64,000 nucleotides of DNA from an uncultured Gammaproteobacteria bacterium (GTDB lineage: Bacteria; Patescibacteriota; Microgenomatia; UBA8517). Below are positions 17,617 to 33,945 of this stretch, in pieces; position 1 is the stretch's first letter, and every line of letters begins with the position of its first letter. A program made the position numbers and the translations under genes. The notes below the pieces were generated by a model, which searched no databases, was not told the DNA's origin, and saw only the letters and a program-made list of their open reading frames with translations. The stretch is taken from contig CAZAUT010000003.1 of the NCBI GenBank assembly GCA_964488535.1, positions 2,232 to 66,231 of the forward strand, read 5' to 3'.

Positions 17617-17844
17617 GGATTTATGCTAGATTGTAGCGTAAGTCAACTATACATAATAATATGTTCTTTTGTACAGAGAAGTAACAACATGTGCCAATTG
17701 CTGTGGGCTATTTGTTGACACTTTGGCCTGCCCGCTATGTCTGACATCAACTCTGACAGGCGGGGCAAAAATATCTTCCTGGGTACATACGATTCATGCA
17801 ACACCTAAACACTTTCTACGTTCGGGGATAAATTGATATTTTGA

Positions 17845-18780: not shown

Positions 18781-18799
18781 GATACTATTTTAACAGATT

Positions 18800-18930
18800 T
18801 CTACCCCTCGAAGCCCAGCTTAGTGGGGCGAAGTAGGACAACTCTTTCCCTGTAACCATGCCCCTCGCGAGCGCGAAGCTGTAAGATTCTGGCACGGGGT
18901 AAGTGTGTTATGGAGTCGGGTAATTCGGGC
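18800..18930 (-). ncRNA. conserved noncoding element, copy E3, upstream of fpg
   Basis: It shares gcgaagctgtaag..cacggggtaagtgtgttat blocks with E1 and E2. It also contains a copy of the cgaagcc..ggcgaag palindromic element. Confidence 0.3.
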
Positions 18931-19025
18931 ATATCATCAGTATATAGTATGCAGAATACTGTATACAGGACTTCATTGTTTTATTTGCTGTTGATGTAGT
19001 ATTAATATTATCCTATAATACTTCA

Positions 19026-19259
19026 ATGAACAAAGAAGTGTTGACTAAAAACACCAATACTTGGAAAGATGTTGTTACACGCGGTTGTTGCGATGGATCA
19101 ATTTTAACTTTATCGGCTGCCTTAGTGCGAGCTTACGACACGAAAGATTTGCCAACTCTTTATCCCGCATTTTTGTTACTGGGTTTGGTAAATTTTGTTA
19201 TGCTTCCTAATTTAAGAGAAATTAGATCTAAAATGAGAACTCCGGTCGATCTCAGTTAA
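19026..19259 (+). CDS. small hypothetical membrane protein
   Basis: 77 aa with a hydrophobic C-terminal half. Confidence 0.25.
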   Translation: MNKEVLTKNTNTWKDVVTRGCCDGSILTLSAALVRAYDTKDLPTLYPAFLLLGLVNFVMLPNLREIRSKMRTPVDLS

Positions 19260-19303
19260 ATACAAAATTATTTCCCTACAAACCGTTGTATTTTCCTGTT
19301 ACT

Positions 19304-20515: not shown

Positions 20516-20518
20516 GTA

Positions 20519-20905
20519 TTACGTATTATGTATTTCTGCACTTTTTATAAGTCCGTTTATCAACTTATGTACGATAATTGTTTGATAATATACTTTATCG
20601 AAATCATCTTTTTCAATATAGCCAATATCCCTGGATATGATTAATTGGTTTTGAACCTCTGTCAAAGAACCCAAAGAAGTGGAGTAGAATTGTACTTTTT
20701 CTTTTCTTGTACGTCTACTAAATCCCTCTGCGATATTGCTGCTAACCGAAATTACAGCACGCAATATTTGGGGGATTAAAATGAAAGCTTCGCTCTTGGG
20801 AAAATTCTTCACAATTTTATAAACCAAAATTACCAACTTATGAGCTTCTTTCCATGCATTTAAATCTGTAAAGTTTGTTATCTTTTTGTTTTGCTGCTCA
20901 TACAT
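20519..20905 (-). CDS. four-helix-bundle protein (Avd / 23S rRNA IVS family)
   Basis: LNAWKEAHKLVILVYK .. FPKSE .. NIAEGFSRRTRKEK. Confidence 0.75.
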   Translation of the reverse strand: MYEQQNKKITNFTDLNAWKEAHKLVILVYKIVKNFPKSEAFILIPQILRAVISVSSNIAEGFSRRTRKEKVQFYSTSLGSLTEVQNQLIISRDIGYIEKDDFDKVYYQTIIVHKLINGLIKSAEIHNT

Positions 20906-20979
20906 AATACTTTATACCTTATACGTTATACATATTTTACATTGCGTTATACATAATACTTTATACGTTATACTCAAAC
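20906..20979. repeat. tandem-repeat array, tatacgt/tatacat family
   Basis: atacataatactttataccttatacgttatacatattttacattgcgttatacataatactttatacgttatac. Confidence 0.6.
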
Positions 20980-22002
20980 TCAAAACAACATACCTTGCTC
21001 ACTTACAGAGTTTATATCTTTCAACTTAACCTTCTCTTGACCAATCTCTGGTTTTGAGTTTGATAGTCTCCGCAGGAGACTTTTGAATCCATACTCCATA
21101 AAAAGCCCTACGGCTTTCTCGCTTCCCAAATCCCACTCCCCCATTTTTTTAATATCAATTTCTGTCGGAACGTTGGTGTCAATTGTCGCCAATTCGTACG
21201 ACAGGTCGGCTCCTTCCCTGTCTTTCTCTAATTTATTTCTTACATTTGGATTTATTTCCGACAGGTGTTTATAAACATTCTCCTTCGTTTTATATTTTGT
21301 CAATAAGTCCCTCGCCGTTTTCGGACCAATCCCTGCCACTCCGGGGTAATTGTCCGACGAATCTCCAACCAACGCTTTATAATCAACCATTTGTTTGGGC
21401 TCAAAATCAAATTCTTGCTTTACCTCTTCAACTCCGTATAATTTCCCTTCTTTTAATCCTTTTACCGGAACATAGACCTTCACTTTGTCATTTATGAGCT
21501 GAAAAATATCCCGATCGCCGGTGACGATGATAACTTTGTCGATCAGAGTAGAAGAGCGGGAGAGCGGGAGAGTAGAAGTTCTTATTGATTTCTGATTTTT
21601 CTCATGTTTCTTACTTACACTCTTCCACTCTTTTACTCTTATACTCTGCTTGGCAAGCGTCCCAAGCACATCATCCGCCTCAAACCCCGCTTTCTCATAA
21701 ACCGGAATTCCAAATGCTTCCAAAACATCGTGCATTTTGGTAATTTGTTGGGAAAGAAAGTCATCCATTTCAGGACGCTGTGATTGATAGTGAATATACT
21801 TTTCTTTTCTGAAAGTCTTTTCCGGGCGGTCAAAACAAACCGCAATATGGGTGGGTTTAATGTCGTTTATAAGTCCCAGAAGCATTGAAACAAATCCATA
21901 AACAGCATTTATAGGTTCTCCTTTTTTAGTCGTTAAGGGAGGCAAAGCATGATACGCCCGATGCATGATCGCATTTCCGTCAATAAGAATCAGTTTTGAC
22001 AT
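20980..22002 (-). CDS. stand-alone 5'-3' exonuclease (PolI N-terminal / FEN-like), carrying an in-frame repeat insertion
   Basis: N-terminus LILIDGNAIMHRAYHALPPL and an H3TH region. A 40-aa low-complexity insertion is encoded by a gagtagaag / ctcttccactc inverted repeat. Confidence 0.8.
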   Translation of the reverse strand: MSKLILIDGNAIMHRAYHALPPLTTKKGEPINAVYGFVSMLLGLINDIKPTHIAVCFDRPEKTFRKEKYIHYQSQRPEMDDFLSQQITKMHDVLEAFGIPVYEKAGFEADDVLGTLAKQSIRVKEWKSVSKKHEKNQKSIRTSTLPLSRSSTLIDKVIIVTGDRDIFQLINDKVKVYVPVKGLKEGKLYGVEEVKQEFDFEPKQMVDYKALVGDSSDNYPGVAGIGPKTARDLLTKYKTKENVYKHLSEINPNVRNKLEKDREGADLSYELATIDTNVPTEIDIKKMGEWDLGSEKAVGLFMEYGFKSLLRRLSNSKPEIGQEKVKLKDINSVSEQGMLF

Positions 22003-22299
22003 TATTGAATTTTAACACCTTTATCCCATAAAGTTGACATTCACACACACTAAGATACCGGTGATGATTGAAAAGTTTGGTCAATATGGAATAGACAGAG
22101 CGATTTCGGATAGAATTTTAGCTACGAGCAGTGGTACCAAGAAGCGAGAAGAGACTCCATTCAGGAAATAAAAAGGGCTGCATTTAACAGTAATGAAAGA
22201 CTTGCGGTACTACTCGGTATACTCCAACACTTCTTGGGAAATCAACCAAAAATGCTTAAAAGTGAAGCTCTTGGCTGGCAAAGTAAAAAAATATTGATG

Positions 22300-22660
22300 G
22301 GTATAAAGAGGTATTCCAAACTGCCAATCACCCCGGATTGGAATTTGTGACCGAATACAGACGCGACGGCGTCGGGCAGTTATACGCATACGACAGGCAA
22401 TTCGTTTATACTCCTTTGGACAAGTAAGCGGCATCAAACGTTTTAAAAAACACTCGCGATGTCTGTATCCTCTCGGATATTTTTCGGTGAACTGTATCAC
22501 CGAAAAAGGTGTTCAAGGAGAAGCTTACCCCATTACCAACCTTTATCTGGAACAAATTCTGTCGAGCCGGTTATCGAAACAGATTTCGCACCACAACGGT
22601 GTCCTTTTTCGTTTCTTGCAGACACTGCAAAAGCTGCCGCCTTAGACCTTCCTTCGGGGG
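22300..22660 (-). ncRNA. rnpB: candidate RNase P RNA
   Basis: A GC-rich noncoding island of ~360 nt. On the minus strand, GAUAACCGGCUCGACAG matches the P4 5' strand region GAAAGUCCGGGCUCCAUAG. About 255 nt downstream, ACAAAUUCCAAUCCGGGGUGAUUGGCAGUUU matches the conserved 3' end ACAGAACCCGGCUUAUCGGUCAGUUU. Confidence 0.45.
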
Positions 22661-22776
22661 TATTTAAAAAAGTTCTGCTTGCTTGTGTGCACGCTTGTCC
22701 ACCATCTCCGTGATAGTGAACGATTACATATTCACAACCTTCAGCCTTCATACGGATTGTTCAATATAAATATTTA

Positions 22777-22980
22777 TTACACGCCATCCTGTCTCTTGTC
22801 GTATTCCCGCATTCTTCCGATATAATTTCCATCCATCATTGCGCGCCAAGCCGTTCCGTCTTCATCGTACACCGGATGCACAACTTCCTTCCTTTTGAGT
22901 CTTATACTCCAATTCTGAAAAGCAGTTAAAAATGGTGATTTTTTTGTCTCTTTCGGTTTTTCAATAGTCATCTTCTTCAC
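22777..22980 (-). CDS. small hypothetical protein
   Basis: 67-aa ORF lying between ftsH and the RNase P RNA candidate. Confidence 0.3.
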   Translation of the reverse strand: MKKMTIEKPKETKKSPFLTAFQNWSIRLKRKEVVHPVYDEDGTAWRAMMDGNYIGRMREYDKRQDGV

Positions 22981-23040
22981 CTCCTGACTTCTCTACATCC
23001 CTCCCAATATCCTAGTATCTTAATATCTTAATATCTTTCC

Positions 23041-25032
23041 CTATTTCTTCCCCACAATCTTCTCAAACTGTTCCCGATCGAGCGTTTCTGTTTTCAAAAG
23101 TTCACTGGCTACATTATCAAGTTTTACCTTATTTTTCTTAACCAGGACAACTGCTTCTTTATACGCTGTATCCATAATTTTTTTGATTTCCATATCTACT
23201 TTCTCCTGCATTGCCGGAGAAACATTGGCCGGCTCGTAAAACATTGCTTTTCCCATTTCGTCCGCTTCGTACTGCGGTCCCAGGTTGATCGGCCCCAAGG
23301 GACTCATTCCGAATTCGACAACCATTGCCCGCGCAAGACGGGTTGCCTGTTCGATATCACTGCTTGCACCGCTGGTCATTTCATTAAATATCAATTCTTC
23401 CGCAGCCCGCCCTCCCAGCATAGCGGAGATTTGCTCTTTTATTCTTGAACGGGTTTCGTGAGTTCGGTCCGCTGCAGGAGGAATAAGGGTATGTCCGAGA
23501 CTTATCCCCCGCGCAACAATTGAAATCCTCTGAACCGGATCCATGTGGGGAAGAAAGTGAGTAACAATGGCGTGTCCGGCTTCATGGTATGCAGTTATTT
23601 TTTTGTCCTCCTCGCTTTGAAGACGCTTTTTCGCAGGTCCAAGTTTGACCTTAGTCCCTGCTTCCTCAATATCCTTCTGTTCGATCGCTTCCTTATTCTC
23701 ACGCGCTGCCAGAATCGCAGATTCGTTCAGTACATTTTCAAGATCGGCTCCCGAATACCCCACTGTCGAATCCGCAACCTTTTCCCAGTTAATGTCTTTA
23801 ACAAATTTTTTTCCTTTGGCATGAATTTTTAAAATTGCCAATCGGCCGTCTTTATCCGGCATATCAAGCATTACACGCCTGTCAAAACGGCCCGGACGAA
23901 GAAGAGCCGGGTCCAAAAGATCCCCTCTGTTTGTCGCTGCTATAACTACAACATTATCATTCGAAGTAAATCCGTCCATCTCAACCAAAATCTGATTTAA
24001 CGTCTGTTCGCGCTCGTCATGTCCGCCAACGATTCCACGCCCGCGTTGTCTTCCGATTGCATCAATCTCGTCAATAAATATTATTGAAGGTGACTGTGTT
24101 TTAGCAGTTGAAAACAGATCGCGCACGCGACTGGCACCAACACCCACAAGCATTTCCATAAACTCACTTCCGGCCATGGAAAAGAAAGGCACGCCGGCTT
24201 CACCCGCTACCGCCTTGGCCAAAAGGGTTTTTCCAACACCCGAAGGTCCGAATAAAAGCACTCCCTTAGGCGTTCTTGCTCCGATCTTCTGATACTTTGC
24301 CGGATTTTTCAAAAAATCTACAATTTCCACCAACTCTTTCTTTGCCTCGTCAACTCCCGCTACATCAGAAAAAGTGACATTTTGTTTTCCTTTTGAAAAA
24401 AGTTTTGCTTTGCTTCTGCCGAAAGAAAAGATGTCCTGTGCACTCCTGTTTTGGGCTCGAAGGACAGCAAAAAATATCGCTCCGAAAAGAACTACCGGAA
24501 GAAGGATTCCCAATATCTCACCGAAAGAATTAGAAAGCGATTGGTCAACAACCCGATATTTTATATCTGACGGTTGTTTGTTTATTTTTTCAAGTAATTC
24601 CGCCAAGCTGTCCGACGGTTCTTTTGTGGTTGTTTTTACGCTTCCATCCTGATATGTCAGTACCAGTTTTGAATCCTGAACAATAATTTCTTTTACTTTA
24701 CTTTCTTTAATATCAGTTAAAGCCTGAGAGATATCAAGCTTCTGGTCGGTATTGGCAATTTCAAAAATCGAGAGTATAAAAGGCGCAAAAAAGATAAAGA
24801 GCATAAAGGCCAGAAGCATTTTCCAAAGGTTTATACGCAGTTTTACCTCCACTTTCTTTTCGGCCGGTTTTCCATATTTTCCCTTTTTTCCGTCCTTTCC
24901 GTTCTTAACCTTTTTTTCCAATGCTGGCTTTTTCTCTTTTTTCTGATCCTCTTTTACAATTCGCTCAAGATCCTTCAGAGATTTTATCTTTACAAATTTT
25001 ATTTTAGGAATTATTGACATGTTAATAAACAA
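23041..25032 (-). CDS. ftsH: ATP-dependent zinc metalloprotease FtsH
   Basis: N-terminal TM segments, AAA motifs GPSGVGKTLLAKAVAGEAGVPFF and DEIDAIGR, and the zinc-binding HEAGHA. Confidence 0.9.
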   Translation of the reverse strand: MFINMSIIPKIKFVKIKSLKDLERIVKEDQKKEKKPALEKKVKNGKDGKKGKYGKPAEKKVEVKLRINLWKMLLAFMLFIFFAPFILSIFEIANTDQKLDISQALTDIKESKVKEIIVQDSKLVLTYQDGSVKTTTKEPSDSLAELLEKINKQPSDIKYRVVDQSLSNSFGEILGILLPVVLFGAIFFAVLRAQNRSAQDIFSFGRSKAKLFSKGKQNVTFSDVAGVDEAKKELVEIVDFLKNPAKYQKIGARTPKGVLLFGPSGVGKTLLAKAVAGEAGVPFFSMAGSEFMEMLVGVGASRVRDLFSTAKTQSPSIIFIDEIDAIGRQRGRGIVGGHDEREQTLNQILVEMDGFTSNDNVVVIAATNRGDLLDPALLRPGRFDRRVMLDMPDKDGRLAILKIHAKGKKFVKDINWEKVADSTVGYSGADLENVLNESAILAARENKEAIEQKDIEEAGTKVKLGPAKKRLQSEEDKKITAYHEAGHAIVTHFLPHMDPVQRISIVARGISLGHTLIPPAADRTHETRSRIKEQISAMLGGRAAEELIFNEMTSGASSDIEQATRLARAMVVEFGMSPLGPINLGPQYEADEMGKAMFYEPANVSPAMQEKVDMEIKKIMDTAYKEAVVLVKKNKVKLDNVASELLKTETLDREQFEKIVGKK

Positions 25033-25188
25033 GGAGAATTATAGCACGGAGAGTATTAATTTCTAATTACTAATTTCAAATTTCTAAACAAGCTCAAATT
25101 ACGCAATTCCCAACTATAAAAATGTCCCATTTTGACATTTGGGTTTGGGACTTGATTTGTCATTAGGTTAATCAGGTCAATTAGAAAT

Positions 25189-25668
25189 TTACATCACCCT
25201 CGTTCCATTCGGTACTTTTTCCATTGGAGTAAGTAGTACCGGTTTGTCGGAAACTTCCTCATCCCCTATTTTTATGGGTTTATCCAATATCAAATCTGCT
25301 GCCATCATCATTCCTTCACTATAGTCCCCCTCGGGACCAATTTTCTTTTTTTCCATATTAACTACAAAGGGAAATTGTTTTCCGATGAGATCGTCCGGCT
25401 TGAAAAAGTGCATTATGCCTGCAAAAATCGTAATTGGGGCCGATTTTTGCCCTGAGCGACCAAGAGGAGCCGAAGAGCTATTGCCGTCATTCTGGCCCAG
25501 TCCAGAATCTGACTCTGTCATCCTGAGCGTAGTCGAAGGATCTTTCTTTGTATCACCTACGTCTACAGTTAACTTCATCACCCAATGGCTCCACTCCGGC
25601 ACTACTGCCTCAACAACAGTCCCAATCCTAATGTCTAATTGTTTGAACTGGTTAAAAGTAACGTTCAT
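25189..25668 (-). CDS. tRNA-binding domain protein (CsaA / Trbp111-like), carrying an in-frame insertion
   Basis: The LDIRIGTV...LIGK...GMMMA pattern of the OB-fold tRNA-binding domain. A 38-aa low-complexity insertion is encoded by a palindromic segment. Confidence 0.55.
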   Translation of the reverse strand: MNVTFNQFKQLDIRIGTVVEAVVPEWSHWVMKLTVDVGDTKKDPSTTLRMTESDSGLGQNDGNSSSAPLGRSGQKSAPITIFAGIMHFFKPDDLIGKQFPFVVNMEKKKIGPEGDYSEGMMMAADLILDKPIKIGDEEVSDKPVLLTPMEKVPNGTRVM

Positions 25669-25692
25669 ATGGCATGTATATTGTATAAAGTA

Positions 25693-26073
25693 TTACGAAT
25701 TATGTATTTTTTCAACTCCTTTTATTAAACCATTAATTAGTTTATGAACAACAATCGTCTGATTATCTAAAACCTCAAAATTGTGCATATCAAGATAATT
25801 TACTCCACGGGCAATAATTATTTGATTTTGAAGCTCGGTTAACGACCCCTGAGCCATAGTATAAAACTGAATTTTTTCCTTTCTCGTCCGTCTACTAAAA
25901 CCCTCTGCAACATTACTTGAAACTGAAACGACAGCCCTTCTCATTTGAGAAACAAGTGCATATATCTCCTTTTGAGGAAAACGTTCTGTAACTTTGTAAA
26001 TTAATATTACTAATCTATAAGCTTCTTTCCAGGCATTCAAATCAGAAAACCTACGAATTTTCTCCTCATACAT
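25693..26073 (-). CDS. four-helix-bundle protein (Avd / 23S rRNA IVS family)
   Basis: LNAWKEAYRLVILIYK..FPQKE..NVAEGFSRRTRKEK. Confidence 0.75.
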   Translation of the reverse strand: MYEEKIRRFSDLNAWKEAYRLVILIYKVTERFPQKEIYALVSQMRRAVVSVSSNVAEGFSRRTRKEKIQFYTMAQGSLTELQNQIIIARGVNYLDMHNFEVLDNQTIVVHKLINGLIKGVEKIHNS

Positions 26074-26160
26074 AATACCTAATTCAAAATACTATATTCA
26101 ACAGAGCCCAACCTTCTCATACACTTACCTCAAATTCTTCCCTGAAAAAATTTGTAGACG

Positions 26161-27660
26161 TTACCCGTTCAATTTATTGATAATTCCAATAACTTCGTAT
26201 ACTTCACGCATCGTTTCTTTTGCAACAAGTCTGGCTTTTTCGGCACCTTTTTTCAAGATATTCCTGGCTAAATCGATATTATTCTCAAGTTCATTCCTTC
26301 TCTTTCTAGCTTCGGTGAATTTGCGTTTATGGGCTTCAAACAATTTCTCCTTTACCTCTACATCACCAACTTTTCCTTCCCGGTATTTTGTTTTCAGGTC
26401 GTCAACCTCTTCTTTGTCGTCGTTTATTATATCGTGATAAATAAATACAGGATTTCCCTCAACCTTCCCCGGATCCGTTGCTTTCTTCCTATTGGGGTCC
26501 GTATAGCTTCCCATAATCTGTCTTCTTATTGCCGTTTCGTCATCAAAAATTCCAATAATATTTCCCAAACTTTTACTCATTTTTCTTTCTCCGTCAGTAC
26601 CCACAACTCTGCCATTGGCACCCGTTTTAATTAACGGCTCCGGAACCGTAAAAACCTCCCCATGAACCCTATTGAAATTTCTTGCCGTTTCGCGCGCGAA
26701 CTCAACGTGCTGTCTCTGGTCATCACCAACAGGAACCCCGTCGGGTTTATAAAGCAAAATATCTGCTGTCATTAATATGGGGTAATTAAAAAGTCCCATA
26801 TTGATATCCTCTTTTGAAACCCCTTTAGCCAGTTTGTCTTTAAAGGCATGCATCCGGTTTGCCAAGCCAAAGGGAACGTAATTGGCTAAAACAATTGCCA
26901 ACATACTGTGTTCTGGTACATCCGACTGACGGAAGTAAATCCCTTTTTCGGGATCAAGCCCCAAGGCAATGTAGTCAAAAACGTTACTGACAATACACTT
27001 TTCAAGTTCATCTTTGTCTTGAACGGTTGTTAAAGCGTGTAAATCTGCAACAAAATAAAACGATTCAACCCCTTTTTCCAATAATTCAAATTGGGGTTTA
27101 ACTGCACCGGCGTAATTACCAAGATGAAGCGTGTTCCCGCTTGGAGTAATCCCGGACAATACCCTCTTGGCTACTCTTTGCGTTACTCCTTCTTCAATAA
27201 AATCACCAATAACTGCATTGGTTACTTTCTGTAAAATTTCTGGTTTTATCTTTAAATCGTGTTCAAAGCTGCCGGTTCCACCATAGGCATATTCTCTTTC
27301 AAGAATTGTCTCATCCATCAAGGTTAATAAATGTGTGACCATTGGAGTAGCCCCCTTTAAAGCACTTGTTACTTTTTTTATTTCATCTTCTGAAGCCATC
27401 TTAAGATCTGGGGTATTGAGATAAATCTTAATTTTTTCTGTATCCAATTTATGATCGTCTCTCCTAAAAACGGCAATAAATTTTTTATCGGTTTTAAAAA
27501 TAAGTGTTGAAACACCATCTTCGGCACCAATATTTAAAAACTCCAAACCTTCCTCCACAGTTTTAATTGGTGGATGTTTGATAATTTCATATTCCACACC
27601 TAAATTATCAAGTTCTTTCTGAAGTTCCTGCAATCTTCTATTTTCAATTTTGTCTTTCAT
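26161..27660 (-). CDS. trpS: tryptophanyl-tRNA synthetase with an N-terminal YbaK/ProX-like domain
   Basis: The C-terminal ~330 aa carry TLHLGNY (HIGH), VGDDQRQHVE (TrpRS GxDQ) and KMSKS. The N-terminal ~170 aa look like a YbaK/ProX deacylase domain (EIIKHPPIKTVEE, YAYGGTGSF). Confidence 0.75.
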   Translation of the reverse strand: MKDKIENRRLQELQKELDNLGVEYEIIKHPPIKTVEEGLEFLNIGAEDGVSTLIFKTDKKFIAVFRRDDHKLDTEKIKIYLNTPDLKMASEDEIKKVTSALKGATPMVTHLLTLMDETILEREYAYGGTGSFEHDLKIKPEILQKVTNAVIGDFIEEGVTQRVAKRVLSGITPSGNTLHLGNYAGAVKPQFELLEKGVESFYFVADLHALTTVQDKDELEKCIVSNVFDYIALGLDPEKGIYFRQSDVPEHSMLAIVLANYVPFGLANRMHAFKDKLAKGVSKEDINMGLFNYPILMTADILLYKPDGVPVGDDQRQHVEFARETARNFNRVHGEVFTVPEPLIKTGANGRVVGTDGERKMSKSLGNIIGIFDDETAIRRQIMGSYTDPNRKKATDPGKVEGNPVFIYHDIINDDKEEVDDLKTKYREGKVGDVEVKEKLFEAHKRKFTEARKRRNELENNIDLARNILKKGAEKARLVAKETMREVYEVIGIINKLNG

Positions 27661-28298
27661 ACATCTTTTAATATTTTAGCTTTTAAACCAAAAAAATCAT
27701 ATGCATTTTCTCCGGCAAGTACAGGATAGAAATTCTCGTTTGAGTCATTGTATACCTGAAAGTTAATATAATCGCCTTTATTTTTGATCTTATCATAAAC
27801 CTCATATACGGTGATTTTACTTTTAATACATCCTTTCTTTCTAATTGTCTCAATTATATTAAGTGTTCGTTCAAACGATTTTGGGTCGGTATGGTTTCCG
27901 ACTTCAATCGATACGCCATTTCGATAATTAATCAAGGCATGTCCTTTTTTAATATTATGTTTCATATAAACAATATCTTTGATACCAAGGGTTTTTGCAA
28001 AATTCAACATTTTCAAATCAACCATAATTACAAATGGTTTTGACATGGCAGAAAATGTATGAAGGTCAATGACAATGGTTTTTTTGTCAATCTTATATAA
28101 AACCTCCCGGGCTCGTTTTTCTTCATAACTATTACCCTTTTTTCCAAATGATGCGTTCATGTCTATTTGAATAAACCGCTTTCCCAGACTAAGTGCTTTT
28201 TTATTCGCAATAATTTGCCTTACTCCGGAAGAAGCCAAAGCCAAAACAGGCATGGGTTCGTCTCCGTGTATTGCTGTTACAAATTGTATATTTTTCAT
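27657..28298 (-). CDS. succinylglutamate desuccinylase / aspartoacylase (AstE/AspA) family protein, short form
   Basis: IHGDEP (the HGNE-type zinc motif) and DLH. At 213 aa it is shorter than typical family members. Confidence 0.5.
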   Translation of the reverse strand: MKNIQFVTAIHGDEPMPVLALASSGVRQIIANKKALSLGKRFIQIDMNASFGKKGNSYEEKRAREVLYKIDKKTIVIDLHTFSAMSKPFVIMVDLKMLNFAKTLGIKDIVYMKHNIKKGHALINYRNGVSIEVGNHTDPKSFERTLNIIETIRKKGCIKSKITVYEVYDKIKNKGDYINFQVYNDSNENFYPVLAGENAYDFFGLKAKILKDV

Positions 28299-28300
28299 AA

Positions 28301-28930
28301 TTAACTCTCCTTTACATATCCGGCAAAAATAATCGCATCGCCCCGCAGATGGTCAAACCCATTTCCCTTAATTGCGATCGAATCAAATTTTTTGATGTCG
28401 CCATACAAACTCGAGCCGCCATATCGTCCTCTATCAAACGGACCAATCTCTGACATCTGCAAATTTCTCGTTCCAATCAATTCAGCAATCTCCACAGACA
28501 TATGAAAATCATAATGAGAAATTTTCTCTCCAAGTTTTCGCATAATAAATGATTGTGTATGAAAAGCCAAAACATCTGAACCACATTCTCTTATATCGTT
28601 TTCTAAAAATGTCTTCGCAAATCCATTTCCCCGCACCGACTCTGACGTTATAATTCCTTCAAGGTGATATACACTCATATTTCGATAAAATCTCAAGCTT
28701 GTTGCTATAAACGCAACCGATTTACCGTTTTTATCTTGAGCTATCCTCAATCTATCACAATCAATCACATGGTCATAAACATCTTTATACAAAGCATCTG
28801 TAACGGTTCTCATAAAACCTTCTGCTGTTAATGGTGTAAGTGAAAGAGCCAAATTGTGTTTATGATTTTCGGATAAAGTTTCTTTTGGTCTTATAATTAC
28901 TTCGCCAAAGTACCCCCTGCCCTTCGACAT
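28301..28930 (-). CDS. putative GNAT-family acetyltransferase
   Basis: HLEGIITSESVRGNGFAKTFL resembles GNAT motif A. The call is weak. Confidence 0.35.
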   Translation of the reverse strand: MSKGRGYFGEVIIRPKETLSENHKHNLALSLTPLTAEGFMRTVTDALYKDVYDHVIDCDRLRIAQDKNGKSVAFIATSLRFYRNMSVYHLEGIITSESVRGNGFAKTFLENDIRECGSDVLAFHTQSFIMRKLGEKISHYDFHMSVEIAELIGTRNLQMSEIGPFDRGRYGGSSLYGDIKKFDSIAIKGNGFDHLRGDAIIFAGYVKES

Positions 28931-29154
28931 TGCTCAGGGTTAATAACCCATTTGCACTCTCAGAGCAAGAGGCTCCTTTCACAATGTTTGGTTCATATTC
29001 TTTTGACATATTTTTTTGTACACCAATAACGCAAAAAACCCTTGCAAAACCACCACAAAATGATGATCTTACAAGGGTTCTTCAATTAAAGCTTATTGCC
29101 GTTCCGCAGCTTTAGCGAAGGACGGTGCCACCTTGTTTTAATATCTTACCCCAA

Positions 29155-29181
29155 CCAATAAAAAAGTCGCCTATCGGCGAC
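29155..29181 (-). terminator. rho-independent terminator (GTCGCCGATAGGCGAC + U-run) on the minus strand
   Basis: A perfect 6-bp stem with a 4-nt loop, followed by TTTTTTATT on the minus strand. It lies ~240 nt downstream of tRNA-Met. Confidence 0.45.
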
Positions 29182-29455
29182 AAACAGTTCGAATAAGATA
29201 TCCTCATTATTCGGTACTCCGACTGTCTGCCGACATACCGTTGTGACGTGATGACGCTTCACTTGCGTGGTAGACTATCGCCTACCCGGCTCCGGGATCC
29301 CAACCAATCCCTTCACAGCCTTTTTTAAATTATGTTGGTATAGTACCAAAATTTCGAAATAATTGCAAACATACTGAAGTTGAAAAGAATTTTGACATGT
29401 CGATCTGCGATTGCCATAGCGATTTGAAAAATCGGTATGTCGCAAAAATTTGCTG

Positions 29456-29527
29456 TGCCAAGGGAGAGGATCGAACTCTCGACATCGCGCTTATGAAACG
29501 CGCGCTCTACCACTGAGCTACCTTGGC
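29456..29527 (-). tRNA. tRNA-Met (CAT anticodon; elongator Met or Ile2/lysidine type)
   Basis: The minus strand reads GCCAAGGTAGCTCAGTGGTAGAGCGCGCGTTTCATAAGCGCGATGTCGAGAGTTCGATCCTCTCCCTTGGCA. The cloverleaf is complete, with anticodon loop TTCATAA and no GGG/CCC initiator signature in the anticodon stem. Confidence 0.8.
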
Positions 29528-29540
29528 AATATTTTTTGCG

Positions 29541-29577
29541 CCATGAAACGATTGCTCTACCACTGAGCTACGTTGGC
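29541..29577 (-). pseudogene. truncated 5'-half copy of tRNA-Met, ending in the anticodon loop after CAT
   Basis: The minus strand reads GCCAACGTAGCTCAGTGGTAGAGCAATCGTTTCAT then GGCGC. It lies 12 nt upstream of the intact tRNA-Met. Confidence 0.5.
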
Positions 29578-29589
29578 AAAATTTGTCAT

Positions 29590-29700
29590 GAAACGACTAC
29601 CCTGCCATTACCTGCCCCGTAAAAGCGATACTTCGATGCGAGGATGTAAACCTCGAGAGAAGCGAGCTCTGTACGGGGAGCTACCCCGACATTCCCTATT
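29590..29700 (-). ncRNA. conserved noncoding element, copy E2, upstream of tRNA-Met
   Basis: cgatgcgaggatgtaaacctcgagagaagcgagctctgtacgggg shares blocks with E1 and E3. It contains the hairpin CGAGG-7nt-CCTCG. Confidence 0.3.
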
Positions 29701-29906
29701 TTACTAAAGCGTTGTATTAACTTCAATCTTGAAGTATAATTTACCCTGTTCTTTACCATAATTCCTAATTCATAATTCGTAATTCAGGAAAAATGTGCGG
29801 GGTAGTGTCCCGAAAAAATTTCGCTTTGCTCAATTCAACGGGACGAGCAGATGAAACTTCGCATACATTGGTAATTTTAATCGTATTTTAACAACTTAAT
29901 CATATG

Positions 29907-30227
29907 TGCGGGGTAGTGTACGGCTGCACGGAAGGCTCAAAATGGGCTTCCCGCTTAGCGGGATAAATTTGGCTATATCGGTGAAACCTAAGCTTTATAG
30001 AGTATGGCAACGCCGAGGAAAGACTACGTTCAAATTTTATGAAAGTAGAATCCGTAGAGACTATACGCCAAAGCACGTTCATATAAACTGAATGTACAAG
30101 ACATAGTCCGACACTCCCAAATACCTTTTGGTATTTGACAGTAAACTGTATAGTTCATTGCAAGAAATTGGAGATTACAGAATAAGCATAATCTTCCAGA
30201 TCAGGTTCAACTCCTGACCCCGCAACA
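29907..30227 (+). ncRNA. ssrA: tmRNA (SsrA)
   Basis: The 5' acceptor strand TGCGGGG pairs with the 3' CCCCGCA. The 3' T-arm CAGGTTCAACTCCTG is near-identical to the E. coli tmRNA T-arm GGGTTCAACTCCCGC. A candidate tag ORF at 30007-30042 (GCA ACG CCG AGG AAA GAC TAC GTT CAA ATT TTA TGA, giving ATPRKDYVQIL) aligns in position and codons with E. coli ANDENYALAA. Confidence 0.6.
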
Positions 30228-30241
30228 CATTTTTCAGAAAT

Positions 30242-30676
30242 TTAAAAACTGCTTTTCTGAAAAAAAATCTCTGCCCACTTCCTCCAATTTGGTACCGTGT
30301 TGTCCTCATTAATAATTTCATCCTTGGGCACAAGTTTAACCAAAATCTCATCCGGCGGTAAGATCAGAATCAGCTCATTTTCTTTTGTCATGTTCAGTTG
30401 ATTACGAAGCTGCTTTTCAATATAATCGTCACTTGTAATCTCTTCATATTTACTCTTTAATTGGGCTTCCCTGTCGCGAAGTTCAACCAGTTCTCTTTCT
30501 TTTATGTCCGCTTCCTCGTCAATATTTCTCAGTCTCTTGAAAGTACGCACGGAAGAACTTAAAAACATCACTAAAGAAACGAGAAAAGCGATGGATAAGA
30601 TCTTCTCTTTAACCGCAGACGAACGTTTTTCTGAATTATTTTTGATTAGACTATATTGTCTCATAATATTGACCAA
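30242..30676 (-). CDS. FtsB/DivIC-like septum formation initiator (TM + coiled coil)
   Basis: 144 aa with an N-terminal TM helix followed by a heptad-rich segment (ELVELRDREAQLKSKYEEI). Confidence 0.45.
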   Translation of the reverse strand: MVNIMRQYSLIKNNSEKRSSAVKEKILSIAFLVSLVMFLSSSVRTFKRLRNIDEEADIKERELVELRDREAQLKSKYEEITSDDYIEKQLRNQLNMTKENELILILPPDEILVKLVPKDEIINEDNTVPNWRKWAEIFFQKSSF

Positions 30677-30762
30677 GTGCCATACGACGTGATAATATAC
30701 TGTCCGATAGCTTATTTTTTAAGGGTTAGGTCTCCAAAATAAGTCTAAAGACATTATATAAT

Positions 30763-31626
30763 ATGACGCAGGTTGTTCTTAAAGACCTTTTGCCCAAATT
30801 CATACAACACCTCAAGGATAATAAAAGATCCCCATCGACAGTATTGGCGTACAAAGCAGACCTCGATCAGCTGGTTTCATTTCTCACAGAGAAAGGTAAA
30901 GTATTGACCGAAGATGTAGAAGCATCCGACATTGAAGGGTTCCGTGATACGCTGCTAGCCAACAAGTATACGCCGAAATCCGTTTCGAGAAAACTAAATG
31001 CCGTAAAAACGTTTTTCAGGTTTTTGACCGACAACAAAATATCTCCCAAAGATCCGTCGTCTTCAGTTTCTCACCCCAAAATCGAGTCAACTATGCCGAA
31101 ATTTTTATCTGCCATTGAATACAGAGCCTTGCGGGATGTGGTCCGAAACGACGCCAGGATAGCTGCAATAATTGAATTGATCTTAGAGGCCGGATTGAGA
31201 ATTTCTGAAGTAGCCGGACTTAAAAGGGAAAACTGCAAAAACCACATCCTTAAAATTGAGGCTTATGCAACTCAGGAAGCTCGGGAAATTCCTCTCAATG
31301 CATCGGCAAAGGCTGCCCTCGACAGGTATCTTAACGAGAGGCCGGATACCAAGTCTCCCTATGTATTCGTAAGTAAAAACGGAAAACCTCTTGCCATAAG
31401 AAATATCAGAGCAGCTATCGACAGATATTTCCAAAAAGCCGAAATTCCCGGATACACCGTAAACGATCTCCGCACTACTTTTGTCGTACAAAACTTAAAA
31501 GCCGGCGTGGATCTTATTCTTCTTTCCCGTGTTTCGGGCCCCAAAAGACTCTCAACGACGGAAAGATATCTTCAGCTTGCCCAAATCACCCAATCGGGCA
31601 AGAAACAGGAGTTGGTGGAGTTGTAA
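30763..31626 (+). CDS. tyrosine site-specific recombinase (XerC/XerD/integrase family), with divergent active-site residues
   Basis: Core-binding N-domain, ARG-I in GLRISEVAGL, DLRTTF in place of HxLRH, and C-terminal LSTTERY carrying the catalytic Tyr. Confidence 0.7.
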   Translation: MTQVVLKDLLPKFIQHLKDNKRSPSTVLAYKADLDQLVSFLTEKGKVLTEDVEASDIEGFRDTLLANKYTPKSVSRKLNAVKTFFRFLTDNKISPKDPSSSVSHPKIESTMPKFLSAIEYRALRDVVRNDARIAAIIELILEAGLRISEVAGLKRENCKNHILKIEAYATQEAREIPLNASAKAALDRYLNERPDTKSPYVFVSKNGKPLAIRNIRAAIDRYFQKAEIPGYTVNDLRTTFVVQNLKAGVDLILLSRVSGPKRLSTTERYLQLAQITQSGKKQELVEL

Positions 31627-31654
31627 ACCCAATAAATTAGCCCAATTAGTCAAA

Positions 31655-32203
31655 TTAGTCCAATTTGCCTAATTTGTAGTTACTTCTTTTTCTGTACAAA
31701 TTTTCACGAAATCCACCTTCCTTCACAAACTTTTCTTGTTTTGACTTCAGCAGTTTGTCCAAAAGATAACCCTGCTTGTAACACAAACAAATCATTAAAT
31801 TTGCAAAATTTTCGGGGTTGTTAAAATCCAATCCTGTCCAATCGGCTAAATCATCCAAAGTAGTTGGTTTACCAACGCTTTCTTTAAAACTCCGTATTCT
31901 TAACACCCGCGGGTCGTTTTTGTCCCATACCGGCAAATTCCTCATCCTTAAAAAATCCTCATAATCCTCCGAAAGTTCCGAATATGAACTTCTGCTGACA
32001 CTATTAAGCATAATGTCGCTGGCTATTGAAAGTTCTTTTGAACCTTCAACAATATTCTGCTTGCCGCTTCTTGCGGCTTGAATCATCTGCTCAACGGTTC
32101 TTTTGAATTTTGGGTGAGACAAAAATCTTTCACAAAAAATGTTTGTTAAATCGTAGATCGTAACTGAAGTTCGATAAACCAGAAGTTCTTTATATCCTCC
32201 CAT
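31655..32203 (-). CDS. four-helix-bundle protein with a C-terminal suffix domain
   Basis: LLVYRTS..IYDLT...QMIQAARSGKQNIVEGS plus a ~70-aa C-terminal extension. Confidence 0.6.
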   Translation of the reverse strand: MGGYKELLVYRTSVTIYDLTNIFCERFLSHPKFKRTVEQMIQAARSGKQNIVEGSKELSIASDIMLNSVSRSSYSELSEDYEDFLRMRNLPVWDKNDPRVLRIRSFKESVGKPTTLDDLADWTGLDFNNPENFANLMICLCYKQGYLLDKLLKSKQEKFVKEGGFRENLYRKRSNYKLGKLD

Positions 32204-32407
32204 TATCTCAAGTTAGCCCAATCGGACAAATTAGTCAAATTCAGATAATCAGCCAAATTAGACAAATTAGCCACACGCCAATAAACCGTTTTTTATTTTC
32301 AACATATTTGTGGCCCGGGATGGGTTCGACCAAGTCTGACTTGGGTTACTCTCCATCGACTTCCATTTTATGACAGATACTAATCTGACATGTCAGAAAT
32401 TGAGATT

Positions 32408-32446
32408 GTGGGCGTGCATGGGATCGAACCATGGACATCTACTTTA
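32408..32446 (-). pseudogene. 3' half of a split tRNA (AAAGTAG..GTCCATGGTTCGATCCCATGCACGCCCA)
   Basis: An anticodon-stem 3' strand, variable loop, T-arm and acceptor 3' strand CACGCCC that match the 5' half at 32569-32602. Confidence 0.45.
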
Positions 32447-32462
32447 TGGCAATAAATTTCCT

Positions 32463-32534
32463 GTGGGCTGAGATGGGTTCGAACCATCGACATCTACTTT
32501 ATAAGAGTAGCGCTCTACCACTGAGCTATCAGCC
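32463..32534 (-). tRNA. tRNA-Ile (TAT anticodon)
   Basis: The minus strand reads GGGCTGATAGCTCAGTGGTAGAGCGCTACTCTTATAAAGTAGATGTCGATGGTTCGAACCCATCTCAGCCCA. The cloverleaf is complete, with anticodon loop CTTATAA. Confidence 0.7.
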
Positions 32535-32568
32535 CTTAAATTTATTGACATGTCAAACTCCGTTTGCC

Positions 32569-32602
32569 ATAAGAGTAGCGCTCTACCGCTGAGCTACACG
32601 CC
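32569..32602 (-). pseudogene. 5' half of a split tRNA (GGGCGTGTAGCTCAGCGGTAGAGCGCTACTCTTAT)
   Basis: Acceptor 5' strand, D-arm, anticodon stem, and a loop ending at CTTAT. Its 3' partner lies 125 nt downstream on the minus strand, beyond the intact tRNA-Ile. Confidence 0.45.
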
Positions 32603-32614
32603 CTCAACTTCTGT

Positions 32615-32650
32615 CATAAGAAAGGCACTCTAACCACTGAGTTACCGAGC
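32615..32650 (-). pseudogene. additional truncated tRNA 5' half (GGCTCGGTAACTCAGTGGTTAGAGTGCCTTTCTTAT)
   Basis: A third 5' half that also ends at CTTAT. No matching 3' half was found. Confidence 0.4.
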
Positions 32651-32971
32651 CGTGAGGTTATTATATCAAGAGATGTGTAAAAACTTAACACGAGGTTGAA
32701 AATTTGTTGATAGTTACTTGGTTACTTTGACAAACGCGGTACGTGATACGAAATGCGAGATACGAAATACGTAAAACGAAAATGGTTAGTAGAAATCAGA
32801 AAATTGTAATGGATAATAGAGATTGGAAAATGGTACTCAAATTTCTATTTTCAATTTTCCATTACTAATTTCTACTTTCTCTCAACCAATTTCTGTTCCT
32901 GTTTATTGTTTTTCCTCCCAATATCCTAATATCCTAGTATCTTAATATCTTCATCTCTCAACAATTTGTAT

Positions 32972-33808
32972 TCACAAATTATTGTTCACCGCTCCCCTTA
33001 TCCCCTCCCAATCCTTAACTTTTCTTATTTTGAGGTTTTTATTCCATGCGGCCCGAAGTACGGAAAGGTCAACACCTAATTTTTTGGCGTGTCCCAAAAT
33101 GGCTACGGTATCCTTGGGGAAACATTTCAAACCAAAACCTCCAAACGGAGACGCCTTCAAAAATGCCTTACCTACTCTCGGATCGGCACCTACCATCTCT
33201 GCAATTTCGTTATAATTAACCCCCAATTTCTTTGCCAGTTCCGCCATTTCATTGGCAAAAATTATTTTGGTTGCCATAAAAGTATTACTCATATATTTCA
33301 CCATCTCAGCCGATGTCGGGTCGGTTATATAAACTTTCACTTTATAGCCCATTACGTCACGGTGAAGACGGGCAATTCTGTTGGCAACATCTTCGTTAAA
33401 GGCACCGATGACAATACGGTCCGGGTGTAAAAAATCCCATGGAGCATTGATTTCGGTTAAAAATTCCGGATTCATGGCAAAATCCACTTTCGGATATTTC
33501 TTTGCGTATTTGGCGGTTGTGCCCGGAATCACAGTTGATTTAACAATTACGGGAATGTTCTTTCCGGCCAGTAGAGGAGCTATCCCGTCAACAACCTTGT
33601 CCATTATGGAAAGATCGATACCTGTGTGATCCGCTTTCATCGGTGTGGGAAGACAAAGAAAAATAAAGTCGGACTTTTCGCAGAGTTCCCCGACCGGAGT
33701 CGATCCTTTATCGGTCTTATTGTTCCACAGAATTTTATGTTTCCTGCCAAAACCCGTTCCGGTAGCCTTGCCTACTATTCCCCAACCGATAATACCAAGC
33801 GTAGCCAT
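32972..33808 (-). CDS. UDP-glucose / nucleotide-sugar 6-dehydrogenase family protein (short form)
   Basis: N-terminal Rossmann fold GIIGWGIVG and catalytic GFGLKCFPKD. At 278 aa it appears to lack the usual C-terminal UDP-binding domain. Confidence 0.65.
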   Translation of the reverse strand: MATLGIIGWGIVGKATGTGFGRKHKILWNNKTDKGSTPVGELCEKSDFIFLCLPTPMKADHTGIDLSIMDKVVDGIAPLLAGKNIPVIVKSTVIPGTTAKYAKKYPKVDFAMNPEFLTEINAPWDFLHPDRIVIGAFNEDVANRIARLHRDVMGYKVKVYITDPTSAEMVKYMSNTFMATKIIFANEMAELAKKLGVNYNEIAEMVGADPRVGKAFLKASPFGGFGLKCFPKDTVAILGHAKKLGVDLSVLRAAWNKNLKIRKVKDWEGIRGAVNNNL

Positions 33809-33945
33809 GATGAGAAATTTACTACTTTATAAAAAAAATCGCAAGGGAGGAAAAATCTTCACAAATATATACCAATTTCAAATGTCCACCAATTCCCAAT
33901 AAGAAATTTGTATTTATTTGTATTTATTGGTACTTATTGGAAATT

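What the first reader, a model, noticed from the sequence alone, without database searches (positions are those of the whole stretch)
26161..27660. TrpRS fused to an N-terminal YbaK/ProX-like trans-editing domain
The catalytic core is ordinary TrpRS, with HIGH-like TLHLGNY, GDDQ and KMSKS. The first ~170 residues have the hallmark features of the YbaK/ProX aminoacyl-tRNA deacylase fold. TrpRS normally has no editing domain, so a fused deacylase suggests proofreading or a moonlighting function in this lineage.
Basis: partly seen in the sequence, partly recalled or inferred. Interest (0 to 1): 0.5.

Follow-up and report, generated by a model that had tools for sequence, protein, structure and literature searches.

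The report
TrpRS with Lys-less YbaK-like domain
A tryptophan-charging enzyme from an ultrasmall (CPR/Patescibacteria) bacterium really does carry an extra proofreading-type domain, but that domain belongs to an undescribed branch that lacks the family's hallmark lysine, so whether it proofreads is still open.

Summary
ORF 26161..27660 (-) encodes a 499-aa protein. Residues 166-499 are a canonical bacterial TrpRS (TIGR00233, 290 bits; TLHLGNY, GDDQ and KMSKS are present). Residues 1-157 are a YbaK/INS-fold domain (Pfam PF04073, 65 bits; AF2 pLDDT 92.7; TM 0.8-0.9 to ProX, YbaK and APE2540). The domain lacks the conserved Lys that all characterized INS-superfamily deacylases use: S51 here, and never Lys in 113 family copies. 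Its GXXXP loop is altered (GATPM). It has an invariant RRxD motif instead, and R66 sits cross-strand from position 51. Lys51 and a basic residue at 66 are mutually exclusive across the superfamily sample. The fusion is common but patchy in Microgenomates-type CPR lineages. Variants include tandem double domains, extra B3/4 or tRNA_bind domains, a split two-gene form, a TyrRS fusion and free-standing copies. The domain is under purifying selection (dN/dS about 0.12) and is flexibly tethered. The best reading is a cis-acting module that binds the aminoacylated tRNA end and probably deacylates it, substrate unknown. The main rival is a non-catalytic tRNA-binding domain. I found no description in the searched literature. 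This is a new variant of a known kind.

The parts
26161..27660 (-). Complete gene: YbaK-like domain plus TrpRS, 499 aa plus stop codon
27190..27660 (-). N-terminal INS/YbaK-fold domain, residues 1-157 (the Pfam PF04073 match covers residues 29-145, i.e. 27226-27576)
   Evidence: Pfam 65 bits; AF2 pLDDT 92.7; Foldseek TM 0.8-0.9 to 2cx5/1wdv/1dbu; profile against PDB, 1wdv E=2.6e-20
27508..27510 (-). Ser51, at the position of the superfamily's conserved Lys (K46 of H. influenzae YbaK)
   Evidence: Residue-level alignments to five PDB references. Family counts A54, S42, G9, P3, K0
27454..27465 (-). RRDD motif (R66, R67, D68, D69). R67 and D69 are invariant and R66 nearly so. R66 is inferred to lie cross-strand from S51
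27340..27354 (-). G103-A-T-P-M107, the altered counterpart of the GXXXP loop. G103 is conserved in 111 of 113 copies; the Pro is shifted by one position in this copy
27313..27315 (-). D116, invariant in this clade and also conserved in canonical superfamily members
27166..27189 (-). Inter-domain linker, residues 158-165 (GVTQRVAK), predicted flexible
   Evidence: Full-length AF2: pLDDT below 50 at residues 158-161, pTM 0.64. The closest homolog has a 9-aa indel here
26164..27165 (-). Bacterial-type TrpRS catalytic core and anticodon-binding helices, residues 166-499. HIGH-like motif at 27112-27132, GDDQ at 26716-26727, KMSKS at 26569-26583
   Evidence: TIGR00233 289.6 bits against cutoff 176.75; PF00579; motifs verified
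25189..25668 (-). Downstream stand-alone tRNA_bind (Trbp111-like) protein, 159 aa. It is a likely functional partner: homologous to the C-terminal extension of the 780-800-aa TrpRS forms, and syntenic with trpS in relatives
   Evidence: PF01588 34.8 bits; alignment to the C-terminus of P0039; synteny in L001, L002 and L007

Best explanation
The gene encodes a genuine two-module enzyme. SHOWN: it has a canonical bacterial TrpRS core that charges tRNA-Trp. This is preceded by an INS/YbaK-fold domain on a short linker that is predicted to be flexible. The domain belongs to a discrete, previously uncharacterized 'Lys-less RRxD' clade of the aminoacyl-tRNA-deacylase superfamily. The clade is under purifying selection. 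It is repeatedly linked to class-Ic synthetases (TrpRS and occasionally TyrRS) by N-terminal fusion, C-terminal fusion or gene adjacency. INFERRED: the domain still binds the aminoacylated 3'-CCA end of tRNA in the conserved pocket (G103 loop, D116, G128/G130). R66, on the neighbouring beta-strand, takes over the substrate-positioning role of the missing Lys. The domain then hydrolyses an aberrant aminoacyl-tRNA-Trp made by the adjacent active site. That would be post-transfer editing in cis, or re-sampling after release. The substrate is unknown. Candidates are D-Trp, Trp analogues, or other aromatic amino acids on tRNA-Trp. The module is accessory rather than essential, because close relatives have lost it.
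For: The fold and homology are secure. The active-site-lining positions shared with canonical deacylases are retained almost invariantly despite only 22-46% pairwise identity: G103 in 111/113 copies, D116 in 111/113, G128 in 107/113. Lys51 and a basic residue at 66 are mutually exclusive: 0 of 86 Lys-type representatives have a basic residue at 66, against 40 of 59 non-Lys representatives (Fisher p~1.5e-21). The hairpin of strands 49-56 and 61-67 puts residues 51 and 66 in cross-strand register. This pattern fits a relocated positive charge rather than active-site decay. dN/dS is ~0.12 against the closest fused homolog. Linkage to TrpRS is independent and recurrent: N-terminal fusions across a large CPR clade; a C-terminal fusion (P0142); and a separate gene 10 nt upstream of a TrpRS that is only 36% identical (L013). 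The same clade is fused to a TyrRS in two independent assemblies. Some TrpRS forms also carry a second copy of the domain, or a B3/4 domain, which is the PheRS-beta editing fold and also the fold of the stand-alone deacylase CtdA (PMC10018355). Stacking deacylase-type modules argues for an editing role. Free-standing copies exist, as expected of an autonomous catalytic unit like the known trans-editing factors.
Against: The conserved Lys, described as used by all characterized INS-superfamily members (PMC11286415), is absent. The GXXXP proline is absent or shifted in about half of the clade, including this copy. TrpRS is not known to need editing (own knowledge), and no misacylation product is identified. 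Close relatives with 80-86% identical cores lack the domain, with no remnant within 6 kb, so it is dispensable. The co-occurring tRNA_bind domain fits a pure tRNA-affinity role equally well. The R66-for-Lys substitution was inferred from strand register, not from coordinates. No activity was or could be measured here.
Confidence: 0.45

Rival explanations
1. The domain is a pseudo-deacylase: a catalytically dead INS-like domain kept as a tRNA acceptor-end or tRNA-body binding module. It would raise TrpRS affinity for tRNA-Trp, or hold and protect Trp-tRNA-Trp. This would resemble appended tRNA-binding domains such as Trbp111/Arc1p-type domains, or the INS-like N-terminal domain of yeast ProRS that I recall being reported as editing-defunct (own knowledge).
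For: The hallmark Lys is lost throughout the clade and the GXXXP Pro is partly lost. The domain is flexibly tethered and dispensable in close relatives. It co-occurs with a bona fide tRNA-binding domain, either fused or encoded next door. The YbaK fold is also used outside editing, for example in SadB and 3mem.
Against: G103, D116, G128/G130 and the RRxD motif are conserved near-invariantly at positions that line the catalytic pocket in homologs, and the Lys51/basic-66 swap is strictly exclusive. Both look like maintenance of a specific small-ligand site, not a generic RNA-binding surface. Pairing with a B3/4 deacylase-type domain and tandem duplication is more easily explained by catalysis.
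Confidence: 0.3
2. The domain is a trans-editing factor for another synthetase's errors, such as Ala- or Cys-tRNA-Pro as for INS, ProXp and YbaK. It would be fused to TrpRS only for co-expression or as a scaffold, with no role on tRNA-Trp.
For: The nearest sequence relatives with known function are the ProRS INS domain (NF006625 E=3e-10; 5znj E=7e-18) and ProX/YbaK proteins. Free-standing copies exist away from trpS. A precedent is the AlaX-like domain on Plasmodium TrpRS (PMC3240968).
Against: In the top 150 representatives, the clade is linked specifically to TrpRS or TyrRS in three different arrangements and never to ProRS. It lacks the Lys shared by all known tRNA-Pro editing factors. It scores far below the YbaK and ProRS family cutoffs. 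Whether CPR ProRS lacks an INS domain was not tested.
Confidence: 0.1
3. The apparent fusion is an artefact: a mis-assembly, a missed stop codon or frameshift, or a wrong start codon.
For: The sequence comes from a metagenome. Some relatives have the two parts as separate genes.
Against: The 1,500-nt ORF is uninterrupted. An identical protein is found in a second, independent assembly. About 95 homologous fused proteins come from NCBI, JGI, ENA and Logan sources. Eight fused loci were recovered directly from DNA of species-representative genomes. dN/dS of 0.12 in the N-domain shows it is translated.
Confidence: 0.01

Closest known systems
[quoted passage not shown]
   Same: Same fold (TM 0.8-0.9). 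Detectable sequence homology. The Gly of the GXXXP loop, the Asp equivalent to D116 and the GxG motif are shared. An R-x-D motif similar to the 'VRGxH' stretch of INS in S. aureus ProRS (5znj) is present.
   Different: No conserved Lys (S/A/G/P instead); a basic residue at position 66 instead; the GXXXP Pro is variable. It is attached to a class-I TrpRS rather than inserted in a class-II ProRS. It falls below every curated family cutoff. [quoted passage not shown]
Uncharacterized INS-superfamily clusters ProXp-7, -8 and -9 (Kuzmishin Nagy et al. 2020, as cited in PMC11286415 and PMC11295145)
   Same: These are uncharacterized branches of the same superfamily. The RRxD clade could correspond to one of them.
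   Different: This could not be checked because the defining paper is not in the accessible library. ProXp-7 (MCP3) retains the Lys and GXXXP, so it is not this clade.
Plasmodium cytosolic TrpRS with an appended AlaX-like domain (PMC3240968)
   Same: A TrpRS carrying an N-terminal homolog of a trans-editing factor whose role on tRNA-Trp is unclear.
   Different: Different fold (AlaX versus YbaK/INS), a eukaryotic-type TrpRS, and restricted to alveolates.
ProXp-ala fused to ProRS in trypanosomatids and Plasmodium (PMC11286415, PMC8319005)
   Same: An INS-superfamily domain at the N-terminus of a synthetase, acting in cis.
   Different: The partner there is ProRS, the cognate error-maker. Those domains retain the Lys and GXXXP and have demonstrated Ala-tRNA-Pro deacylase activity.
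D-aminoacyl-tRNA deacylases (DTD1/2/3)
   Same: Only a possible functional analogy. DTD1 substrates are D-Tyr-, D-Trp- and D-Asp-tRNA (PMC1807948). YbaK-type domains in this survey are fused to exactly TyrRS, TrpRS and AspRS.
   Different: Unrelated folds: no DTD structure appears in the fold search. No evidence of chirality selection. The AspRS and archaeal-type TyrRS fusions carry the canonical Lys-type domain, not the RRxD type.

Membership tests
Tryptophanyl-tRNA synthetase (bacterial type, class Ic) | Whole-protein match to the curated equivalog model TIGR00233 above its cutoff | tested here: met
   289.6 bits against cutoff 176.75, residues 165-493 aligned to model positions 3-328 of 328
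Tryptophanyl-tRNA synthetase (bacterial type, class Ic) | HIGH-type and KMSKS signature motifs plus the GxDQ motif of the Rossmann-fold core | tested here: met
   TLHLGNY 177-183, GDDQ 312-315 and KMSKS 360-364 verified by translation. H179, G181, N182, G312, D314, Q315, K360, M361 and K363 are invariant in 48 homologs
Tryptophanyl-tRNA synthetase (bacterial type, class Ic) | Tryptophan-specific aminoacylation of tRNA-Trp | not testable with these tools
   Inferred from the equivalog match only
INS/YbaK aminoacyl-tRNA deacylase superfamily (PF04073) | YbaK-type alpha/beta fold | tested here: met
   AF2 pLDDT 92.7. Foldseek top 37 hits are all YbaK/ProX/INS-fold proteins or domains, TM up to 0.84/0.90
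INS/YbaK aminoacyl-tRNA deacylase superfamily (PF04073) | Pfam model match above the gathering threshold | tested here: met
   65.3 bits against 25.5, model positions 1-122 of 123
INS/YbaK aminoacyl-tRNA deacylase superfamily (PF04073) | Strictly conserved substrate-positioning Lys (K279 in E. coli INS, K46 in H. influenzae YbaK) | tested here: not met
   It aligns to S51. In 113 clade copies the position is A54, S42, G9, P3, K0. The requirement is stated in PMC11286415
INS/YbaK aminoacyl-tRNA deacylase superfamily (PF04073) | GXXXP loop | tested here: inconclusive
   G103 is conserved (111/113), but this copy reads G-A-T-P-M, with the Pro one position early. Clade-wide, P107 occurs in 57/113 and P106 in 48/113
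INS/YbaK aminoacyl-tRNA deacylase superfamily (PF04073) | Hydrolysis of a mis-acylated tRNA | not testable with these tools
   Needs biochemistry
YbaK (Cys-tRNA-Pro deacylase, TIGR00011) | Equivalog model score above the cutoff | tested here: not met
   24.5-28 bits against cutoff 153.25
ProRS INS domain | Insertion between motifs 2 and 3 of a class-II ProRS | tested here: not met
   The domain is N-terminal to a class-I TrpRS. The ProRS models match only residues 23-126, far below cutoff (36-39 bits against 558)
D-aminoacyl-tRNA deacylase (DTD) | DTD fold (DTD1), or the DTD2/DTD3 folds | tested here: not met
   No DTD-type structure among the Foldseek hits. Only a functional analogy is considered

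The most novel reading that the evidence does not exclude
The Lys-less RRxD domain is a new kind of class-Ic-synthetase-dedicated proofreader. Specifically, it would be a chiral checkpoint that removes D-Trp (and, on TyrRS, D-Tyr) from tRNA in CPR bacteria, substituting for DTD. These bacteria scavenge amino acids from hosts and environments rich in D-amino acids. The lead is that YbaK-type domains in this survey are fused to TrpRS, TyrRS and AspRS, the same three synthetases whose D-aminoacyl-tRNA products are the tested DTD1 substrates (PMC1807948). Replacing the pocket Lys with a small residue could make room for a bulky aromatic side chain. That last point is inference.
Probability: 0.1. 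Interest if true: 0.85.

Novelty: new variant of a known kind. Interest (0 to 1): 0.55.

Why it matters
TrpRS is one of the synthetases thought to need no editing domain. A widespread CPR lineage has nevertheless kept a deacylase-fold module on it under purifying selection. Sometimes the module is duplicated, or joined by a second editing-type (B3/4) fold. Either TrpRS has fidelity problems in these organisms that have not been recognised, or the deacylase fold has been repurposed. The clade also breaks the rule that INS-superfamily members use a conserved Lys: a basic residue appears on the neighbouring strand exactly when the Lys is absent. That gives a clean, testable case of active-site residue relocation. 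It also defines a new subfamily with free-standing members outside CPR whose substrate is unknown. If the substrate proves to be D-aminoacyl-tRNA or a Trp analogue, it would add a new quality-control route to translation in reduced-genome bacteria.

Tried and rejected
1. I looked for remnants of the N-domain next to un-fused trpS genes in close relatives, using tblastn with 113 domain sequences against L001-L007. There were none (best E=0.005, unrelated positions). The split-gene and pseudogene explanations are therefore rejected for those loci.
2. The 81- and 65-aa ORFs directly upstream of trpS in L007 are not N-domain fragments.
3. A genome-contig scan with the N-domain alignment failed because no stretch was conserved enough. 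I used the full-length alignment instead.
4. The afdb50 fold library was unavailable.
5. Literature searches for a TrpRS-YbaK fusion, for CPR aaRS editing domains, and for DTD in CPR found no description. The key superfamily review (Kuzmishin Nagy 2020) is not in the library, so I could not check whether the clade corresponds to ProXp-8 or ProXp-9.
6. I scanned the ten largest ORFs of the window for ProRS, DTD or YbaK genes and found none. This says nothing about the rest of the genome.
7. The second homolog search, with the N-domain profile, returned only 13 hits because of its word index. The exhaustive representative search was the informative one.
8. The full-length AF2 model gave no confident inter-domain docking (pTM 0.64), so I could derive no geometry between the synthetic site and the putative editing site.

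Full report
**1. Observation**

The window has an uninterrupted ORF at 26161..27660 on the minus strand (ATG start, 499 aa).
- Pfam finds two domains: PF04073 tRNA_edit at residues 29-145 (65.3 bits, gathering cutoff 25.5) and PF00579 at residues 166-448 (213.7 bits).
- NCBIfam's trpS equivalog TIGR00233 scores 289.6 bits against a cutoff of 176.75 over residues 165-493.
They are invariant in 48 homologs.
- An identical protein occurs in an independent assembly.

**2. The N-terminal domain has a real YbaK/INS fold**

- An AF2 model of residues 1-166, built on 38 diverse homologous domains, has mean pLDDT 92.7 and pTM 0.86.
- All 37 significant Foldseek hits against the PDB are YbaK/ProX/INS-fold proteins or domains. 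They include T. thermophilus ProX 2cx5/2z0k, APE2540 1wdv, H. influenzae YbaK 1dbu and E. coli YbaK 2dxa, with TM 0.8-0.9 and rmsd 1.4-2.3 A.
- A profile of the domain family hits 1wdv at 2.6e-20, the S. aureus ProRS INS domain at 6.9e-18 and YbaK at 2.6e-13.

**3. It is not a canonical member of that superfamily**

The literature states that all characterized INS-superfamily members use a highly conserved Lys and a GXXXP loop (PMC11286415).
- In the residue-level alignments to five solved references, their 'K-T-[LMV]' motif aligns with 'S-T-L' in the window protein (S51).
- Over 113 domain copies from 95 homologous synthetases, this column is A54, S42, G9, P3 and never Lys.
- The GXXXP counterpart here is G103-A-T-P-M107. 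The Gly is conserved (111/113), but the Pro is at the canonical position in only about half of the clade.
- In their place the clade has an invariant R67 and D69 and a nearly invariant R66 ('RRxD'). T52, K76, G99, D116 and G128 are also strongly conserved, with E121 and G130 moderately so.
- G103, D116 and the G128/G130 motif are shared with canonical members.

**4. A discrete clade with a cross-strand charge swap**

An exhaustive profile search of 1.84 billion representative proteins found 7,425 hits at E<=1e-3 and 37 at E<=1e-30.
- Typing the best 150 shows a clean break. The strongest hits lack Lys51 and have [RK]-R-x-D. Weaker hits are canonical, with Lys51 and Pro107.
- Among these 50%-non-redundant representatives, 0 of 86 Lys51 proteins have a basic residue at position 66, against 40 of 59 non-Lys51 proteins (Fisher p~1.5e-21). 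The sequences are not phylogenetically independent.
- In the model, strands 49-56 and 61-67 form a hairpin with a four-residue turn. That places residue 51 opposite residue 66.

I infer that the positive charge that positions the substrate has moved to the neighbouring strand. This rests on strand register, not on coordinates, which the tools do not expose.

**5. Distribution and architectures**

Counts among the 120 best homologs:

| Architecture | Count |
|---|---|
| One N-domain + TrpRS | 74 |
| Two tandem N-domains + TrpRS | 11 |
| Two N-domains + TrpRS + C-terminal extension | 7 |
| B3/4 domain + N-domain + TrpRS | 3 |
| No N-domain | 25 |

- In P0039 the C-terminal extension is a tRNA_bind (Trbp111/MetRS-C-like) domain. 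In P0052 the extra N-terminal domain matches the PheRS-beta B3/4 editing region.
- Named sources are Woesebacteria, Gottesmanbacteria, Microgenomates, Dojkabacteria and 'Patescibacteria group'.
- On a neighbour-joining tree of the core, un-fused forms are scattered among fused ones, which indicates repeated loss.
- Un-fused relatives with 69-83% identical cores (P0113 69%, P0031 80%, P0022 83%) share the window's synteny of trpS, then tRNA_bind in most, then ftsH. They have no N-domain remnant within 6 kb.
- In species-representative genomes, 8 of the 80 best trpS loci are fused and 72 have no N-domain within 3 kb. Among the ~20 closest CPR loci, about 8 are fused.

The RRxD-type domain also occurs in other arrangements:
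- as a separate gene ending 10 nt upstream of a TrpRS only 36% identical to this one (L013);
- at the N-terminus of a bacterial TyrRS, in two assemblies (P0148);
- free-standing in a Parcubacteria genome next to rpsB-tsf;
- free-standing in a complete 1.45-Mb genome among unrelated genes.

A related Lys-less domain without the RR motif sits at the C-terminus of another TrpRS (P0142). Canonical Lys-type domains are fused to archaeal-type TyrRS and to AspRS.

**6. Constraint and tethering**

- Against the closest fused homolog (P0002/L011), the N-domain has 65% amino-acid identity, dN 0.25 and dN/dS ~0.12. The core has 88% identity and dN 0.077. The domain evolves about three times faster but is clearly under purifying selection.
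- In the full-length AF2 model both domains are confident (mean pLDDT 86.1). The linker at 158-161 falls below pLDDT 50 and pTM is 0.64, so the domain looks flexibly tethered.

**7. Surroundings**

- Downstream lies a 126-aa PF05635 (23S rRNA IVP / bAvd-like) gene that is absent from syntenic loci.
- After it comes a 159-aa tRNA_bind protein, homologous to the C-terminal extension of the long TrpRS forms. This is a Rosetta-stone link suggesting it works with TrpRS.
- ftsH follows.
- Upstream, an AstE/AspA-like gene overlaps the trpS start by 4 nt.
- No ProRS, DTD or YbaK gene is among the window's largest ORFs.

**8. Mechanism**

Shown: the architecture, the fold, the clade identity, the selective constraint, and the recurrent linkage to TrpRS and TyrRS.

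Inferred: the pocket still binds the aminoacylated A76, R66 replaces the Lys, and the module deacylates an aberrant aminoacyl-tRNA-Trp.

I give this 0.45. The arguments for it are:
- pocket residues are kept near-invariant;
- the charge swap looks compensatory;
- deacylase-type modules are stacked (double domains, B3/4);
- free-standing copies exist.

The main rival, at 0.3, is a non-catalytic domain that binds the tRNA end. It is favoured by the loss of the Lys, the dispensability of the domain, and the association with tRNA_bind. A trans-editing factor for tRNA-Pro errors gets 0.1, and an artefact about 0.01.

**9. Comparison and novelty**

- The closest known relatives are the ProRS INS domain and the free-standing ProX/YbaK factors. 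Membership in the fold superfamily is met, but the defining Lys test is not met and the GXXXP test is inconclusive.
- Conceptual precedents are the Plasmodium TrpRS with an AlaX-like domain, which is a different fold (PMC3240968), and the ProXp-ala-ProRS fusions of protists.
- None of my searches found a description of a TrpRS-YbaK fusion.
- The proteins are in public databases, annotated simply as tryptophan--tRNA ligase.

I rate it a new variant of a known kind, with interest 0.55.

The most novel reading not excluded is chiral proofreading of D-Trp/D-Tyr-tRNA. It is suggested by the match between the fusion partners (TrpRS, TyrRS, AspRS) and the tested DTD1 substrates. I give it a probability of about 0.1.

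Noticed in passing
window 25693..26073 (-): A 126-aa gene of the 23S-rRNA-intervening-sequence-protein / bAvd-like four-helix-bundle family (PF05635, 117.6 bits) sits between trpS and the tRNA_bind gene. It is absent from the syntenic loci of relatives (L001, L002, L004-L007), so it looks like a lineage-specific insertion.
   Followed up: partly
window 25189..25668 (-): The stand-alone tRNA_bind protein carries a ~30-residue low-complexity loop insertion (about residues 41-72, 'DTKKDPSTTLRMTESDSGLGQNDGNSSSAPLGRSGQKS'). A different insertion sits at the same place in L007, and there is none in L001 or in the fused C-terminal domain of P0039.
   Followed up: partly
window 39768..46662 (-): Three consecutive genes each encode a ribonucleotide-reductase large-subunit-type protein (PF02867 at 390-416 bits). 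Two have ATP-cone domains and one has a TSCPD domain. The second and third ORFs overlap by ~90 nt. Three tandem RNR paralogs are unusual for a reduced genome.
   Followed up: no
L001 3..140 and L002 1..126: Both contigs carrying the un-fused trpS P0022 end ~250 bp upstream of the gene, inside an ORF fragment ('...NEINNRPRKCLGYSTPNEVFFAKL') that I recognise as resembling the C-terminus of IS30-type transposases (from memory, not run against any library). A repeat or IS element sits exactly where the N-domain would be, which may relate to how the domain was lost.
   Followed up: partly
window 1..64000: GC skew is negative in essentially every 2-kb bin, and almost all long ORFs are on the minus strand. 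This strong strand asymmetry is reminiscent of that reported for a complete Microgenomates genome (PMC7143001 title).
   Followed up: no
window 32463..32535 (-): ARAGORN calls a tRNA-Ile with anticodon TAT (UAU). Bacteria more commonly decode AUA with a lysidine-modified CAT tRNA (own knowledge). A tRNA-Met (CAT) lies at 29455..29527.
   Followed up: no
proteins P0139, P0158-P0160, P0164, P0170, P0173, P0174, P0192, P0198, P0211, P0230, P0232, P0260: A second group of Lys-less PF04073 proteins, mostly free-standing (~150-175 aa, a few up to 270 aa), has Pro at the Lys position and no RR motif. It is a further uncharacterized branch of the deacylase superfamily.
   Followed up: no
proteins P0206, P0257, P0209, P0228: Canonical Lys-type YbaK-like domains are fused to the C-terminus of bacterial and archaeal-type AspRS, and to either end of archaeal-type TyrRS. 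I did not find these fusion architectures mentioned in the reviews I read.
   Followed up: partly
window 27657..28298 (-) and 28301..28930 (-): The gene whose stop overlaps the trpS start by 4 nt is a short AstE/AspA-like (succinylglutamate desuccinylase/aspartoacylase) protein (PF24827, 34.8 bits). The next gene upstream (209 aa) has no Pfam match. In the closest homolog (L011) the upstream neighbour is different, a His_Phos_1 protein.
   Followed up: no
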